A stretch of 64,000 nucleotides of DNA from Pecten maximus (lineage: Eukaryota): NCBI RefSeq assembly GCF_902652985.1, contig NC_047030.1, positions 22,444,001 through 22,508,000 on the forward strand, read 5' to 3'. Below, piece after piece: positions 6,001 to 55,600 of the stretch; the stretch's first letter is position 1; each line of letters starts with the position of its first letter. The position numbers were made by a program.

Positions 6001-9000
6001 GCGATGCACATACATCAAAAGATAAAAAGAACTTTTGAGAGTTTGCTTGTCCCTTTTTAAACTACAAGTTGCAGGAATAGGCATATCATTCATTATTGAT
6101 AAACAATAATCAAACATCAGCACATTTGGCCCAGTTTGTTGCTGAATAACTTTTCGTGACTACATAGGTAGGTAGATGTCTTTGTACCTACTTTCTTTTG
6201 TTACTATTTGAACATGTGATAACCAATGTATTTTATAGCCCTCCATCTCCATCGTTAACATACATATACAATACTAGACAACGATTGTTGCTTATGTCCA
6301 AAACCAACCCTTTTTTACTGGTTTCTGTAATTATTAACTTCACAGTAATAGTATTTAATATGTCGTGTTTCCACAGTGATTCCATGGTGATATGGCTGTT
6401 GGGGATAGCTGAGGTTTACACTGTGTATACTTGTTAGAACATAACAATGGTTATACATGTAATAAAGAAGAGGCCGTGCATAAAATATTGGCTCCAACTC
6501 TTTGCAGGTATTACAATTATTCATGATAAGAACTATTACTATATCTCCCTTTACTGTTTTACAGTTGCGAGTGTAAATACATTTGTATTGTGAAGAACTA
6601 CGCCATTGATTCTCACATTATATCATATTCTCCCATTATGTTACATTCTCGCATCACATTCTCATATAATATCACATTCTCACATTACTATATCATATAC
6701 GCACATTGCATCACATACATTATATCACATTCTCACATTATATCCCATTCAAGTTGGAATCAATGAAACTAACAAATATCATCTGCTTTGTTTGTCCATG
6801 AACTGGACCAGTTTATCATCAATAAGCGCCTTATAAAAAAATAAGTGCACAAGCCGCCTGATTCTGCCAAATCCTACGATGGCCGATATCAGCCGTCACG
6901 TTACTCGCATTTATGTGATGCGAGTAACCTGACATAGTAAAAATCACATGACGGGTTACTAGCATGTGATGCGAGTAACCTGACATAGTAAAAGTCACAT
7001 GACAGGTTACTAGCATGTGATGCGAGTAACCTGACATAGTAAAAATCACATGACAGGTTACTAGCATGTGATGCGAGTAACTGTACACAGTCGCGAATGA
7101 GATGACTGTACACTTACAAAACCCATTAATATTCCAGAGTATAGTTTTACTAGACCTTTCAAAAGAGGTTATCATGGCGACTGTAGACAATGGTTTTATA
7201 AGCCAAGGTGTGGCATGTATATACAATGGAGCTCGTGTAGTCTTGTCAATTCATTATTTGACCACAGACTATTTTTTTTTTGCAACAGATTTTTTTATTT
7301 TATTTTTCCTGTAGATTGGTATATTTATGTGATAGAAAAAAAATGCCCTAAATGGGGGAAATGGTTTTATTCACCAAATAGAATTGAGGAAATAAGAGAA
7401 ATTGACCAATAATATACTCTTGAGTGACATTGGACGAGAGATTTTGTATGCAACACAAATAGACTAAAATAATCAATTGGAACCATATGTACTATACTGT
7501 ACAAAGCCACCTGTCATGTGATTTTTACTACGTCAGGTTACTCGCATCACATGCTAGTAACCTGTCATGTGAGTTTTACTATGTCAGGTTACTCGCATCA
7601 CATGCTAGTAACCTGTCATGTGATTTTTACTATGTCAGGTTACTCGCATCACATGAGAGTAACCCGTCATGTGATTTTTACTATGTCAGGTTACTCGCAT
7701 CACATGCGAGTAACCCGTCATGTGATTTTTACTATGTCAGGTTACTCGCATCACATAAATGCGAGTAACGTGACGGCTGATATCGGCCATCGTAAAAATA
7801 ACATACATGTGAGCTTATCAGAGCTTTGGAGGGAGTGAATATGACTGATTTAGATTTTCATAATAGGTCTCATGTATATTAAGAATCTGAGAATTTCGAC
7901 AAATTATTTAACAAAAAACACTGGTAAAATCCCTAACTCGCGCCCCAGCGTGATGCCTATTTTTATATATTCAGAATTAGTTACTAATGTTTTAAATATG
8001 CCCATTAATAATCAAAATAACTAAAAAAGTCATCACTTGAACTGTCCTATTCTATCATGATCCTGTAAATCGTCAAAGTGGAATAAAGCATCCGTGTCAA
8101 GTCCCTGTGTCAGGCGGTCGTTACCTCGCATCCATTATAAACAATTTATACCAGGAAGATCAATTGATCAAAATGGACAATCAGTAAACATTCAATCAAT
8201 GAAGCTTTGCTTTCAGTCAGTTGTAGAGCCCGTGTCAAAGTTACAACCAACTCTGTAACATATTTCGCAAAGATGGCTGTTCAGTTCGAATCAGACACCC
8301 GGAGAACAAAATCTAGTTATTACTCTTCCGCGCAGCTGACGGAGCGTTTTTATAATGATCTCTAAACTCGTTAAACAAATCAATTTTGCAACTTAATTAT
8401 GCTATTTTTAAAATGTTATATAGTAAATGTGCTGCCTTATCGTATTTTTGTGTATTTAATACAGATTAGTCATTCTCTCATGGCGGACTATTTTTAAACA
8501 CAAACCATTAGACTTCCACAAATTTTAGTATTTAAAGATTTCTTAAATTAATTAAGTGCAAATGCGTGTTAACTCAAATATAAGGATTGCATGTTGCTTC
8601 GGTCGATTGCATGGGGTGATGAGTTGAGTTGCTCTTGAGACAAATTCAACGTGAACTGCTTCGCGGTGAATTCATCTCAAAGACACCTCTAGACTAACAT
8701 TTAATCATTAAATGTCAGTACCATGGTATCATTTAACAAGTATCCTACCTACGATAATTTTACGACATTAAGACGAAAGAAGATTGTATATGCGTGAATA
8801 CAAAACTGTAAACTACTAAACTTTTATTTACACACGTCATCGGATAATATACCTTTAAATAGCGAGCTCCACTACATATTCTCAGTAGTCTCATGACATA
8901 TCACTTCGCCGATACTGGAACCACTCGGACAACCAGAAAAATGAATGACATTGCCACCTCCAAACTTCTATTCCGGAGTATTATGAAGGGACATTATAAA

Positions 9001-52600: not shown

Positions 52601-55600
52601 ATTGTTATAGAATGGTTGTTCAAGAAAAGGCATCCTTGAATGGGACTTTGAAGAACTTTAAAGAGGGTTTGAAGAATTCTTGACATCTGCTTCTGAGGAA
52701 GTATCTTCGAATTAAATACCTACAAATTGGTCAATGAGGCTTTTTGGACTGAAAACAATTCCACCCCTCTTCATTCCGATGGACTCCATCAACATACATC
52801 GTTTTATACAACAATCTACTTCATACCACAAAAGAAATCCTACAATGTGGATGACAATTGTTGGACCACATTGATGACGTCATGGCTAGACCACCGAAAT
52901 GATGACGTCACATATGGCCTAATTAAGGGAGGATGCTGTCTCCGAAACGTAGCCAGCAAAGATAATTCATTTGATTATTTTTTCTATGTTTATTTAGTTG
53001 TGTTAATAAGTGAATTAGCAGTGTATACTTATGCTGTCGGTGGTGTAATTTCTAAGAAAAACCCAAAGGCCTATAGGACTCAATGCTCACCTGATTGGTT
53101 AAATATTGCACTAACCTATAACAAGCCACATACGTCTAGAAACTAAGATATCCTGAAAGGAAATACAGATAAAAACATTGTTTGCATGCTTTACATTTAA
53201 TGTCAGCTTGTTAAAACGTGGTGAAGTCCGAGTTCGATTTCTTATTTTCTTACCTAAATGACTCGCCTTTTTAAACATATGCTATCAATAAATACACAAG
53301 GTGACAGTCTCGTAAAAATACTTATAGTCATCTTTGTGTTTTCTACACTATGGTGGTATACTGGTATAAAATGCGCCATGCTAGAATAATTATTGTTCTT
53401 TTTTTTCAGAAGACGGTGTGTCTTTTGCAACCCATTCATATTATTACCTATTTAAACATAACACATCCTTGGAGGGAATTCTGTCGAATACCCACTAAAG
53501 GAATAAAATTGTCATGCAATTTATATTTTGTTCTAATACTGATGCTGAATTAGCCATCTAATGATGAGCTTTTCAAAATATTTCTGATGATAATACTTTT
53601 CATGTTTCTATAACAAATTGTCATCTTGTATAAGAGATCACCTTTTCAATTCCATTTAAACTGCAGATACCTCCATTCGAATAAAGACAGATAGTGTAAT
53701 TAAATTAAGAGAAAAAAGAATTTAAAATATTTTAACCCCCCCCCCCCCCCCCCCCAAACACCGCAAAAGAAAAAAAGTTAAAAAGAAAAGAAAAGCAAAA
53801 AAGGGAAATAAAAATCCAAACTGCTTGCTGTATGTATCAACGGATAATATTGAAGAATATTCCATGTTTATTTTAATATATGATAAGTGAAATAACGTAG
53901 GTCACAGTTTACATTAGCTGCTGCTAGTGGAGGACCTATTACGTATATCGGAAACAAATCCTAAATTGAAGTTGTTGAATACATTACTAAATATATAAGC
54001 AAAGAAACGTAGAACGATACTAAATACGAACATCTACAAAGGGTCAAAAAACCCAACACGTCACTTCTTGTTCAGTAGAGAAAGGAATCGTTATACACGG
54101 CTGCGTAAAGCTAGCAGATATGAACTCTGTGACAGATTAATAAAATACAAAGGGATAGGTGGAAACGTTTCGTAATGCTATCAGGTTTAAACCATGCGGT
54201 TAAAGTCGCAGTCTCCTCATATCCATACATACCAATTTTATCAAAATGGACAATATTTAACATTGACCTAATCAGAGGCAAAGGACAGCCAACGGTGGCC
54301 ATTTCGTTGAAATGTGAAACTTCGGTTACGAAAGAGACCAGTGTCCTATGATGTATATACATTTAATAAAAATCGATTAATATTTAAATTTCGACCAATC
54401 CGAGGACAGGAAATAGCGGCCATCTTAAGGGTATATTGCACACCTCCGACGATTGCGAGCATAGCAGAAGTCTTGGATCTTTTTAAAAGCTTGTTGTATT
54501 ACAATACACCTTCAAGCCAAGCTTCATCAAAATCAGACAATATTTAACTCACGATTTTATTGATTAGTGAATACATCAACACGAATTATTATATATATAT
54601 TCCTTCAGTATAAATTAAAAAACACGGCAACCATTGCTTCGCTTATTATTTCATATCTTAATCTATTATCCATGTCCATACAATTGTACTTGATCATCAC
54701 AGCTACGACAATAGTTACAACATTTAGACGTAATAAAGTCGCGTATATGCGTGAATACAAAACTGTGAACAACTTTTGATTAATGCAAGTCATCGGGAAA
54801 TACACATTCAAATATCGAGTTCCACTATATATTCTCTGAAATCTCATGTCAGCCCGATATGCCGATATTGTAACCATCGGACAACCAGAAATATGAATGA
54901 CAGCGCCACCTCTGAACATCAACTCGATAGTATTATGAAGGGGCATTATAAATTAGTTAACATATTGGTGAACGGGGAGCTGATATCAACAACACTGACA
55001 AGGATTGAAAAATTCCTCTGATGAAGACTTGTCTAGATTCAAACATATCATAAATATCAACCACAGATACATCATCTTCCAGGTAAAGTATTGTGTAATA
55101 TTGTGTGATAATGACGATATTTTTAATTCTAGACAAGCCTTCAGAGCCGTTTGTCCATCCTTATCAGTGATGTTGATATCCCGTCCACCAATACCTTTTC
55201 TGATTTATAATGTCCCTTTATGATACTCTGGAATAGCAGTTTGAAGGTGGCACTGGCAATCATATTTCTTGTTATCCGACAGGTTATTATATCAGCAAAG
55301 TCATATGGAATGAGACTAAAGAGAATATCGTATTGTAATATTTCAAGCTTCTTAAGAAGACGGGGGAGACTTCTGTACTAGCGGTGGTCGGAGGTGTTCA
55401 ATGGACTGTTAATTGTCCGATCACCCAACCAAGGTGGTCGCTATTTCCTGTCATCTGATTCGTCGAAATTTAAATATTTTTGATGAAATTTGGTATGCAA
55501 ATTTATTTTATGAAACACTGGTCACTTTCGTAGCCCGCAGTTTGCAGTCCTATAATTGGTTGAATTTGAATATTGTCCATTTTGATGAAATTGGTATGTA

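What the first reader, a model, noticed from the sequence alone, without database searches (positions are those of the whole stretch)
8893..55325. Birth-and-death array of truncated ANKRD34-like ankyrin genes
Seen: three intact 253-aa ORFs and at least six fragments of different ages within 47 kb. Known (from memory): a second ankyrin repeat with an insertion between TPLMxAC and KxVxYLL, in an intron-less CDS, is typical of ANKRD34, which has four repeats. Here similarity stops at the start of repeat 3 and continues as an unrecognised polar tail. Inference: a lineage-specific two-repeat derivative under repeated amplification, possibly a decoy or tissue-specific adaptor.
[Added by the scan's program, not by the reader: the finding's places include an assembly gap (unread letters, written N; its length is only estimated) at 13082 to 13581, 47523 to 47622. 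Whether the letters on both sides are continuous or in frame is not known: test that first.]
Basis: partly seen in the sequence, partly recalled or inferred. Interest (0 to 1): 0.65.

Follow-up and report, generated by a model that had tools for sequence, protein, structure and literature searches.

The report
Small ankyrin gene family, duplicated locally
A repeat-rich stretch of an unidentified AT-rich animal-type genome carries three intact and six decayed copies of a small single-exon gene whose two-repeat ankyrin domain is kept by selection; this is an ordinary lineage-specific gene family, and its proposed link to ANKRD34 could not be shown.

Summary
Three intact 253-aa ORFs (8893-9654, 30291-31052, 49686-50447, + strand) and six fragment places are there. 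Neither N gap touches a copy. The six fragments come from four independent decay lineages, because two pairs were copied together with their surroundings.

The ORFs look like a real gene. Between copies A and C the ankyrin core (codons 24-111) has 10 synonymous and 3 non-synonymous changes (dN/dS 0.08, p=5e-5). The first 23 codons and the 142-codon tail evolve almost neutrally.

The protein has an N-terminal cap-like ankyrin repeat and one repeat with a 13-residue Ser/Thr-rich insertion between its helices. No third repeat is detectable. The polar tail has no match.

Database hits are generic ankyrin proteins. The only close relative is an unnamed 144-aa protein. No ANKRD34 sequence came up, and an insertion between the helices is common across ankyrin repeats, so ANKRD34 kinship is unsupported and was not testable here.

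Best reading: a taxon-restricted small ankyrin adaptor gene family, evolving by segmental duplication and decay among transposons. Structure prediction failed, and no transcript data were available. Interest is low to moderate.

The parts
8893..9654 (+). Intact copy A, 253-aa ORF. A second in-frame ATG (M17) is at 8941.
   Evidence: An in-frame TAG lies 11 codons upstream (8860-8862).
30291..31052 (+). Intact copy B, 253 aa. Differs from A at 6 nt and 3 aa.
49686..50447 (+). Intact copy C, 253 aa. Differs from A at 56 nt and 32 aa, with no indel.
8494..8892 (+). Proximal upstream block of copy A, the candidate promoter or 5' UTR. The same block precedes B and C. It is more conserved between A and C than the CDS.
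   Evidence: 12/381 mismatches against 71/896 in the other flanks, Fisher p=0.0011. TATA-like words at -314 and -39.
9835..9840 (+). AATAAA 181 nt after the stop of A. The same word sits at +181 in B (31233-31238) and C (50628-50633).
   Evidence: A common word in AT-rich DNA, so weak evidence.
12251..12553 (+). Old pseudogene fragment (aa 59-156) at the end of unit U1.
   Evidence: It has a frameshift, a stop and deletions. It keeps the insertion and part of the tail.
33769..34071 (+). The same old fragment, copied with unit U2. It is cut at 34056 by the insertion of TIR element Z.
41665..41828 (+). Fragment F41: diverged upstream flank, a 132-bp deletion, then ORF nt 60-202 with an in-frame TAG. 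It is joined to repeat Y.
45688..45851 (+). Fragment F45, a copy of F41 made by the 2.2-kb duplication 41340-43503 / 45371-47522 (97.6% identity).
54703..55102 (+). Fragment F54p: about 190 bp of upstream flank plus ORF nt 1-259, with a stop and a frameshift.
55106..55377 (-). Fragment F55m: ORF nt -17 to 216 on the minus strand, joined tail to tail with F54p. The two arms differ by 24%.
51021..51144 (-). Doubtful seventh fragment (ORF nt 207-330).
   Evidence: 67% identity over 131 nt and tblastn E=0.035. Not recovered by the profile search. It overlaps repeat Y.
3641..13019 (+). Duplicated unit U1, which carries copy A.
26056..38118 (+). Duplicated unit U2, which carries copy B. It is 95-98.5% identical to U1 and holds Z as a 3.6-kb insertion.
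48421..50926 (+). Unit U3, which carries copy C. It is the outgroup of the four units (distance 0.068-0.070).
58137..62075 (+). Unit U4, upstream part only. A Z element starts at 62076, 466 bp before where the ATG should be, so any fourth gene copy would lie beyond position 64000.
   Evidence: Distance to U1/U2 is 0.021-0.022.
34056..37613 (.). TIR transposon Z, with 21-nt terminal inverted repeats and an internal 334-bp tandem array. It inserted after the U1/U2 duplication.
13082..13581 (.). Assembly gap 1 (500 N), outside all copies.
47523..47622 (.). Assembly gap 2 (100 N), outside all copies. It cuts off the second copy of the 2.2-kb duplication.

Best explanation
This is a taxon-restricted family of small, single-coding-exon genes. 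Each intact copy encodes a 253-aa protein, or 237 aa if translation starts at the second ATG.

The protein has:
- a minimal ankyrin domain made of a cap-like first repeat (aa 21-53) and one full repeat of 46 aa (aa 54-99), which carries a 13-residue Ser/Thr-rich insertion between its two helices;
- only the first few residues of a third repeat;
- a basic/acidic polar tail of about 140 aa with no recognisable domain.

The family grew by segmental duplication of 2-9-kb units inside transposon-rich DNA. The order of events, from a block shared by all four units, is U3 first, then U4, then U1/U2. Older copies were broken and decayed, which is classical birth-and-death.

Shown: the copies, their ages and lesions, strong purifying selection on the ankyrin core, and near-neutral change in the first 23 codons and in the tail.

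Inferred: the protein works as a small protein-binding adaptor or regulator whose specificity lies in the two-repeat surface and its conserved insertion. It would bind a partner in the usual ankyrin groove, or stack its uncapped C-terminal edge onto the ankyrin domain of a larger protein, as NRARP does on Notch1. The tail would be a disordered, fast-evolving linker or localisation region.
For: Copies and ages.

Selection between A and C:
- codons 24-111: 10 synonymous and 3 non-synonymous changes, dN/dS 0.08, Fisher p=5e-5;
- whole ORF: dN/dS 0.50, p=0.026;
- 32 aa differences against 39.5 expected from random substitutions, P=0.014.

Open frame: no indel in 762 nt against 5 indel events in 1341 nt of flank (P=0.058). 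P(no stop) is 0.13.

Gene-like context:
- the ORF has 41.7% GC against 31-34% in the flanks;
- an in-frame stop lies 11 codons upstream in A and B, and a 19-bp indel lies just upstream of the ATG in C;
- AATAAA sits at +181 in all three copies;
- the proximal upstream 400 bp are significantly conserved.

Architecture:
- the Pfam Ank families cover aa 24-99, and repeat 2 spans 46 residues against a 33-residue model;
- aa 24-63 align with the first repeat of designed ankyrin proteins;
- a 13-residue gap falls right after helix 1 of repeat 2 in pairwise alignment;
- aa 96-160 give nothing at E<=10;
- the tail gives nothing in Pfam, PDB or NCBIfam.

The insertion is old and kept. It is present in the old fragment and in P0097, and it is unchanged between A and C.

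Minimal-domain precedents, from passages read:
- at least 2 repeats form a minimum folding unit (PMC8229355);
- NRARP's three repeats extend the Notch1 ankyrin stack (PMC8229355; bioRxiv 10.1101/645937).
Against: - No transcript or protein evidence could be consulted.
- The codon boundaries 24-111 were chosen after seeing the differences. The a-priori Pfam span 24-99 holds the same 3 non-synonymous changes.
- At nucleotide level the ORF (7.3% divergence) is no better conserved than its flanks (5.3-11.3%).
- The tail's dN/dS of 0.67 is not distinguishable from neutrality (p=0.37). Its chance of staying open by luck is about 0.05, which is only borderline.
- A and B are so alike (0.8%) that they add little independent evidence.
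- No partner is known, so the adaptor and stacking mechanism is analogy only.
Confidence: 0.7

Rival explanations
1. One reading: the genes are truncated derivatives of ANKRD34, keeping its first two repeats and having lost repeats 3-4 and the ANKRD34 tail.
For: - Single coding exon, with the ankyrin domain right at the N-terminus.
- An insertion in repeat 2.
Against: - No ANKRD34 protein surfaced: 2 of 224, 19 of 978 and 7 of 247 candidates passed, and none bore that name.
- The insertion site is one of the two commonest in ankyrin repeats generally (PMC4687027, passages).
- The tail matches nothing.
- The four-repeat criterion is not met.
- 0 papers hold both 'ANKRD34' and 'mollus...'.
Confidence: 0.1
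2. The ORFs are not functional genes. They are recent duplicates of a dead or passenger sequence carried along by repeat-mediated duplication, and they have stayed open by chance.
For: - ORF divergence is no lower than flank divergence.
- The tail and the N-terminus evolve near-neutrally.
- The locus is full of transposon remnants and dispersed repeats.
- No matching protein record was found in the searched collections: none, and no full-length match among the 150 best.
Against: - 10 synonymous against 3 non-synonymous changes in the ankyrin core (p=5e-5).
- The joint chance of no stop and no indel is about 0.0075 (0.13 x 0.058).
- The promoter-proximal block is conserved.
- All truly dead copies in the same window carry stops or frameshifts.
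Confidence: 0.1
3. The 253-aa ORF is only one exon of a larger gene, either a terminal or internal coding exon, or an ORF whose tail is partly intron.
For: - AG dinucleotides with a short pyrimidine run lie just before the ATG.
- Donor-like sites lie inside the ORF: CAG|GTAC at nt 237-240 and GGG|GTAAGA near nt 612 (read).
- The tail is weakly constrained.
Against: - An in-frame stop lies 11 codons upstream in A and B, and a 19-bp (non-triplet) indel lies between that stop and the ATG in C.
- The first repeat is cap-like, which marks the natural start of an ankyrin domain.
- The stop codon is shared by all three copies.
- No other frame of 110 aa or more or scanned frame in the window resembles a host gene.
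- The second half of repeat 2 continues in frame past the nt-237 site.
Confidence: 0.08
4. Copies A and B are one locus assembled twice, as two haplotypes placed in tandem either side of gap 1, so the array has fewer intact genes than it seems.
For: - U1 and U2 are 95-98.5% identical over about 8.4 kb.
- U1 lies in the short contig that ends at gap 1.
Against: - Homology stops inside that contig on both sides. Positions 1-4197 have no counterpart before U2, and 13020-13081 do not match 38119 onward.
- U4 matches U1 further to the left (from 3641) than U2 does.
- The right-hand margin is only 62 bp, so this argument is not strong.
Confidence: 0.12
5. The gene was acquired by horizontal transfer from a bacterium or a virus, where intron-less ankyrin genes are common.
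For: - The CDS has no intron.
- The repeats are near the ankyrin consensus.
- Atlas neighbours of P0097 are mostly bacterial ankyrin clusters. The tool itself warns that such rows are no sign of transfer.
Against: - A scan of 185,579 bacterial and archaeal genomes found 1 relative among 111 pattern matches, at 32% identity over aa 23-118 only.
- NCBIfam matches are far below cut-off (31.9 bits against 500).
Confidence: 0.04

Closest known systems
ANKRD34A/B/C (vertebrate ankyrin repeat domain 34 proteins)
   Same: N-terminal ankyrin domain followed by a long non-globular region. A single coding exon and an enlarged second repeat are recalled features, not checked here. ANKRD34B is described as a cytosolic phosphoprotein (PMC9141100, passage).
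   Different: This protein has two detectable repeats, not four, and 253 aa against roughly 500 (recalled). Its tail has no match. No sequence link was found.
NRARP (Notch-regulated ankyrin repeat protein)
   Same: A very small ankyrin-only regulator: 114 aa, first described with 'at least two' repeats. It acts by adding its repeats to the ankyrin stack of a larger protein (bioRxiv 10.1101/645937 and PMC8229355, passages). This is a working model for how a two-repeat domain with an uncapped edge could act.
   Different: NRARP's repeats are at the C-terminus and it has no long tail. It is not among the 60 best of the 311 PDB matches. The likeness is in function only, not membership.
Polydnavirus Ank proteins (vankyrins), IkappaB-like decoys
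   Same: A multi-member family of shortened ankyrin proteins. They keep the binding domain but lack the regulatory regions (PMC3359993, passages).
   Different: They carry a full IkappaB-like repeat domain and are viral. Here there are only two repeats, and no IkappaB-specific similarity was seen.
Lineage-specific ankyrin-repeat gene expansions in marine invertebrates
   Same: Local duplication of ankyrin-repeat genes. One example is the enrichment of duplicated ankyrin-repeat genes on abalone chromosome 9, discussed there in relation to defence (PMC12627906, passages).
   Different: Those are ankyrins and phosphatase subunits with many repeats. The taxon of this window is not known.
Consensus and designed ankyrin repeats (DARPins)
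   Same: They are the best PDB matches: 311 distinct sequences at E<=0.001, with designed proteins leading the list. This shows that aa 24-63 and 80-103 are close to the ankyrin consensus.
   Different: They are designed proteins, and the matches say nothing about family origin.

Membership tests
Ankyrin-repeat superfamily (Pfam clan Ank) | Match to the Pfam Ank models above their gathering scores | tested here: met
   Ank_4 41.3 bits (cut-off 22.7), Ank 39.8 (21.1), Ank_2 36.1 (27.3), covering aa 24-99. Copy C gives the same.
ANKRD34 | Four ankyrin repeats at the N-terminus (a recalled feature) | tested here: not met
   Two repeats were detected. aa 96-160 of A and C give 0 Pfam families at E<=10.
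ANKRD34 | Closer in sequence to ANKRD34 proteins than to other ankyrin families | not testable with these tools
No ANKRD34 sequence was returned.
ANKRD34 | Enlarged second repeat with an insertion between helix 1 and helix 2 (that ANKRD34 has this is recalled) | tested here: inconclusive
   The ORF has such an insertion, but this site is a general hot spot for insertions in ankyrin repeats (PMC4687027, passages).
ANKRD34 | Intron-less coding sequence (recalled) | tested here: inconclusive
   The ORF is uninterrupted and bounded by an upstream in-frame stop. No cDNA evidence is available.
ANKRD34 | Conserved family-specific C-terminal region | not testable with these tools
   The tail has no match in Pfam (E<=1), PDB (E<=10) or NCBIfam. 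No ANKRD34 tail was at hand for comparison.
Birth-and-death multigene family | Intact members and pseudogene remnants of different ages in one cluster | tested here: met
   There are 3 intact copies and 6 fragment places (4 lineages). Divergence ranges from 0.8% to about 64% at the aa level, and every fragment has stops or frameshifts.
Birth-and-death multigene family | Purifying selection on the surviving members | tested here: met
   dN/dS is 0.08 in the ankyrin core (p=5e-5). The tail is near neutral.
IkappaB / vankyrin | IkappaB-like domain of about six repeats | tested here: not met
   Only two repeats were found.

The most novel reading that the evidence does not exclude
A previously undescribed, taxon-restricted class of minimal ankyrin proteins. 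It would consist of a cap repeat, one repeat with a conserved Ser/Thr-rich loop, an open C-terminal edge and a fast-evolving tail. The 5' 'module' (flank plus aa 1 to about 80) would be copied again and again as a unit. Fragment ends cluster in the DNA that encodes the loop, and an unnamed relative (P0097) is an in-frame tandem of two such modules. This would suggest a modular, possibly defence-related adaptor system that diversifies by module duplication rather than by whole-gene duplication.
Probability: 0.1. Interest if true: 0.45.

Novelty: new member of a known kind. Interest (0 to 1): 0.25.

Why it matters
If the copies are expressed, this would be one of the smallest natural ankyrin domains under clear selection. 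It would also be a clean small example of gene birth and death inside transposon-rich DNA, with a dated order of duplications and a transposon insertion that post-dates one of them. It bears on how few repeats a working ankyrin module needs. For annotation, the practical points are that the ORFs deserve a gene model, that the ANKRD34 label should not be transferred to them, and that a fourth copy may lie just beyond the window.

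Tried and rejected
- Structure prediction of copy A (alignment A2). There is no model, so no fold search was run.
- Atlas look-up of the window's own protein. Not held. The stored relative P0097 gave only generic ankyrin clusters.
- Cluster and name look-up for P0097 and the ORFs. It may even come from the same genome.
- Frameshift idea, that the tail is an out-of-frame ankyrin repeat. 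The other two frames of 9200-9900 show no ankyrin motif by eye. Rejected.
- 'Cassette' idea, that unit U4 is an empty site lacking the gene. Rejected: the break at 62075/62076 is the end of a Z transposon copy.
- Weak tblastn candidates at 47686-47745 and 52573-52659. Not supported at nucleotide level or by the profile search.
- Rfam (0 matches) and tRNA scan (0 genes). Neither gave a clue to the taxon.
- Paper search was badly framed (any 2 of 5 terms) and gave nothing useful. One search replaced it.
- Tandem-repeat finder on 9900-13081. The downstream repeat Y is dispersed or degenerate, not a regular array.
- Complex prediction was not used, because no specific binding claim is made.

Full report
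**Observation**

The window holds three intact 253-aa ORFs on the + strand: A 8893-9654, B 30291-31052 and C 49686-50447. A and B differ at 6 of 762 nt (3 aa). A and C differ at 56 nt (32 aa) and have no indel.

tblastn and blastn with the ORFs find six more places. A profile of the three copies, run against all 2869 six-frame peptides of 15 aa or more, finds the same six and no others at E<=0.01:
- 12251-12553 and 33769-34071;
- 41665-41828 and 45688-45851;
- 54703-55102 (+) and 55106-55377 (-).

A seventh candidate at 51021-51144 (-) is doubtful.

Nothing suggests a human origin.

**Gaps (tested first)**

The two N runs are 13082-13581 (500 N) and 47523-47622 (100 N). Neither lies in or next to an ORF or fragment.
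- Gap 1 is 529 bp past the old fragment.
- Gap 2 is 1.67 kb past fragment F45 and 2.06 kb before the ATG of C.
- The 'ORFs' that searches list across gap 1 are N read as X.
- Homology between units U1 and U2 ends at 13019/38118, 62 bp before gap 1. The sequence right of gap 1 (13582-16000) matches nothing else in the window, so continuity across that gap cannot be shown or denied.
- The second copy of the 2.2-kb duplication 41340-43503 / 45371-47522 stops exactly at gap 2. Its real end, and any further fragment in the gap, is unknown.

No gap was filled.

**Anatomy of the array**

Self-comparison shows four copies of a larger unit:
- U1, 3641-13019, carries A.
- U2, 26056-38118, carries B.
- U3, 48421-50926, carries C.
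- U4, 58137-62075, has the upstream part only.

A 634-bp block shared by all four gives these distances: 0.008 for U1-U2, 0.021-0.022 for U4 against U1/U2, and 0.068-0.070 for U3 against the rest. The order of duplication is therefore U3, then U4, then U1/U2, and it does not follow the physical order.

U4 breaks off at 62075/62076 because a transposon begins there. I call this element Z.
- It has 21-nt terminal inverted repeats at 34056-34076 and 37593-37613.
- It has an internal 334-bp tandem array.
- It sits as a 3.6-kb insertion in U2, where U1 has the empty site (12537/12538).
- It starts again at 57321 and at 62076.
- In U4 it lies 466 bp before the expected ATG, so a fourth gene copy, if present, lies beyond position 64000. 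This is an inference.

The six fragments are four lineages.
- The old fragment (aa 59-156, about 36% aa identity, with a frameshift, a stop and deletions) was copied with U1/U2.
- F41 and F45 (ORF nt 60-202) share an in-frame TAG and were copied by the 2.2-kb duplication.
- F54p and F55m are joined tail to tail. They differ from each other by 24% and from A by 15-18%, so they are two old copies and not a recent palindrome.

Every copy is followed by members of a dispersed 250-560-bp repeat, which I call Y. The rest of the window holds only transposon remnants:
- a GIY-YIG domain at 38518-38730 (-) (27.9 bits, cut-off 22.6; that this marks a Penelope-like element is recalled);
- a degraded reverse transcriptase at 39549-40617 (+);
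- a zf-RVT match at 16011-16430 (-) (25.3 bits, below its 27.5-bit cut-off).

**Is it a gene?**

Between A and C the whole ORF has dN/dS 0.50 (19 synonymous and 37 non-synonymous changes, Fisher p=0.026). Split by region:

| Region | Synonymous | Non-synonymous | dN/dS | p |
|---|---|---|---|---|
| Ankyrin core, codons 24-111 | 10 | 3 | 0.08 | 5e-5 |
| Codons 1-23 | 0 | 8 | n/a | 0.19 |
| Tail, codons 112-253 | 9 | 26 | 0.67 | 0.37 |

The boundaries were set after seeing the differences. The a-priori Pfam span (24-99) contains the same three non-synonymous changes.

Random substitution of 56 sites leaves the frame open in 13% of trials and gives 39.5 aa changes on average, against 32 observed (P=0.014). 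At the flank indel rate, the chance of no indel in 762 nt is 0.058. For the tail alone the joint chance of staying open is about 0.05.

Against a simple picture, the ORF's nucleotide divergence (7.3%) is not lower than that of the flanks (5.3-11.3%). The best-conserved stretch is the 400 bp just upstream of the ATG, with 12/381 mismatches against 71/896 (p=0.0011). This fits a constrained promoter or 5' UTR.

I conclude that the ankyrin domain is under strong purifying selection and the gene is, or recently was, functional. The tail is only weakly constrained.

**Gene model**

- The CDS is one uninterrupted ORF.
- In A and B an in-frame TAG lies 11 codons upstream. In C a 19-bp indel lies between that position and the ATG. 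Coding sequence therefore does not continue upstream in the same frame in all copies.
- The second ATG (M17, 8941) has A at -3. The first has C or G at -3.
- Codons 1-23 change only non-synonymously, and the relative P0097 starts at the M17 position. M17 may be the true start, giving 237 aa. This is an inference.
- TATA-like words lie at -314 and at -39 (-20 in C). AATAAA lies at +181 in all three copies. Such words are frequent in AT-rich DNA.

**Protein**

- The Pfam Ank families cover aa 24-99. The single-repeat model matches aa 54-99, 46 residues for a 33-residue model.
- aa 24-63 align with the first repeat, and the start of the second, of designed ankyrin proteins.
- In pairwise alignment a 13-residue gap falls directly after helix 1 of repeat 2. 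The extra Ser/Thr-rich residues lie within aa 64-79.
- This loop is unchanged between A and C. It is recognisable in the old fragment and in P0097, so it is ancestral and kept.
- After aa 103 the consensus is lost. aa 96-160 of A and C match no Pfam family at E<=10.
- The tail (aa 109-253) matches nothing in Pfam (E<=1), PDB (E<=10) or NCBIfam. Residues 121-253 are 68% polar, charged or glycine, with basic clusters at 123, 202 and 211.
- The tail DNA shows no ankyrin motif in the other two frames.
- The old fragment already carries tail-like sequence up to aa 156, so the domain-tail union is old.

**Relatives**

- Word-indexed searches gave 2 of 224 (near length), 19 of 978 (longer) and 7 of 247 (aa 1-110, longer, E<=10) candidates. 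All are generic ankyrin proteins such as tankyrase-2, fungal NACHT-ankyrins and ankyrin-3, and none is named ANKRD34.
- The exhaustive HMMER search found 59,301 proteins at E<=0.001. Of the 150 best, 149 are multi-repeat proteins of 730-5901 aa that score by summing 9-37 stretches.
- The exception is P0097: 144 aa, unnamed, about 65% identical. It is not encoded in this window (best 60-75% identity). It consists of two in-frame tandem units, each equal to aa 2/17 to 79 of the ORF. Its source could not be looked up, and it might come from the same genome.
- A full-length relative scoring below about 130 bits would not have made that list, so absence of orthologues is not shown.
- No record of the 253-aa protein itself appeared in these collections.
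- A scan of bacterial and archaeal genomes found 1 weak relative among 111 pattern matches (32% identity, aa 23-118).

**ANKRD34**

- The claimed kinship rests on a recalled architecture.
- Of the defining features, four repeats is not met.
- The insertion is present, but it lies at a site where ankyrin repeats in general take insertions (PMC4687027, passages).
- 214 papers mention ANKRD34. I read passages of one, PMC9141100, which calls ANKRD34B a cytosolic phosphoprotein. 0 papers hold both 'ANKRD34' and 'mollus...'.
- The label should not be applied.

**How it most likely works**

Shown: there is a conserved two-repeat ankyrin surface with a conserved Ser/Thr-rich loop, and a variable tail.

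Inferred: the protein is a small adaptor or regulator.
- Two repeats are reported as the minimum folding unit (PMC8229355, passage).
- NRARP, a 114-aa protein, acts by stacking its three repeats onto the Notch1 ankyrin domain (10.1101/645937 and PMC8229355, passages).
- A domain that ends abruptly at the start of repeat 3 has an exposed edge suited to such stacking, or to folding on binding.
- The decoy model of viral IkappaB-like Ank proteins (PMC3359993, passages) is a looser analogy.
- None of this was tested.

**An unexplained detail**

Four of six internal fragment ends fall in ORF nt 175-259, the DNA that encodes the loop, and P0097's units end there too. By simulation this clustering has P=0.057 for all six ends, and 0.005 for the four ends chosen post hoc. 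It is only suggestive.

**Verdict**

This is a real, ordinary birth-and-death cluster of a small, apparently unannotated ankyrin gene. It is a new member of a known kind. The ANKRD34 link is unsupported. Interest is 0.25.

Still open:
- expression;
- taxon;
- relatives in eukaryotic databases;
- structure (tool refusals; the job failed);
- what lies in the gaps and beyond position 64000.

Supplementary files of the cited papers were not seen. They are unlikely to bear on these claims.

Noticed in passing
34056-37613; further copies start at 57321 and 62076: A TIR transposon ('Z') with 21-nt terminal inverted repeats and an internal 334-bp tandem array (35469-36333). It is present in U2 and absent from the matching site of U1 (12537/12538), so it moved after that duplication.
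   Followed up: yes
6875-7091 / 7578-7794 (U1); 28357-28525 / 28961-29157 (U2): A foldback structure about 1.1 kb upstream of the gene. Two inverted arrays of a 51-bp minisatellite form 217-nt arms that are 96% complementary, with a 486-nt spacer. Translated, they give the long repetitive 'ORFs' on both strands.
   Followed up: partly
ORF nt 175-259 (8893+174 to 8893+258 in copy A), and the ends of the fragments at 41828, 55102, 55106 and 12294: Fragment break points cluster in the DNA that encodes the Ser/Thr-rich loop. The unnamed relative P0097 is an in-frame tandem of two units that end at the same place. The statistics are only suggestive (P=0.057) and the cause is unknown.
   Followed up: partly
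8494-8892 (and the same block before B and C): The 400 bp just upstream of the ATG are better conserved between A and C (3.1% divergence) than the coding sequence (7.3%) or the other flanks (7.9%).
   Followed up: yes
38518-38730 (-), 39549-40617 (+), 16011-16430 (-), 797-1150 (-): Retroelement remnants: a GIY-YIG endonuclease domain (Penelope-like), a frameshifted reverse transcriptase (weak RVT_1 match), a zf-RVT match just below its cut-off (25.3 bits against 27.5), and an RT-like frame at the window's start that has no Pfam match.
   Followed up: partly
10217-12300, 31615-33817, 41809-42886, 45832-46720, 50945-51164, 52198-52442, 56473-57319 (-): A dispersed, degenerate repeat of 250-560 bp ('Y', 68-87% identity between copies) lies downstream of every gene copy and fragment. 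It includes an A-rich tract at 11529-11559 and might have mediated the duplications.
   Followed up: partly
19519-20185: A two-copy tandem repeat of 332 bp at 98% identity, in the otherwise unique 12.5 kb between U1 and U2.
   Followed up: no
58137-64000: Unit U4 is close to U1/U2 (2% divergence) but is interrupted by Z before the gene position. A fourth gene copy may lie just outside the window.
   Followed up: partly
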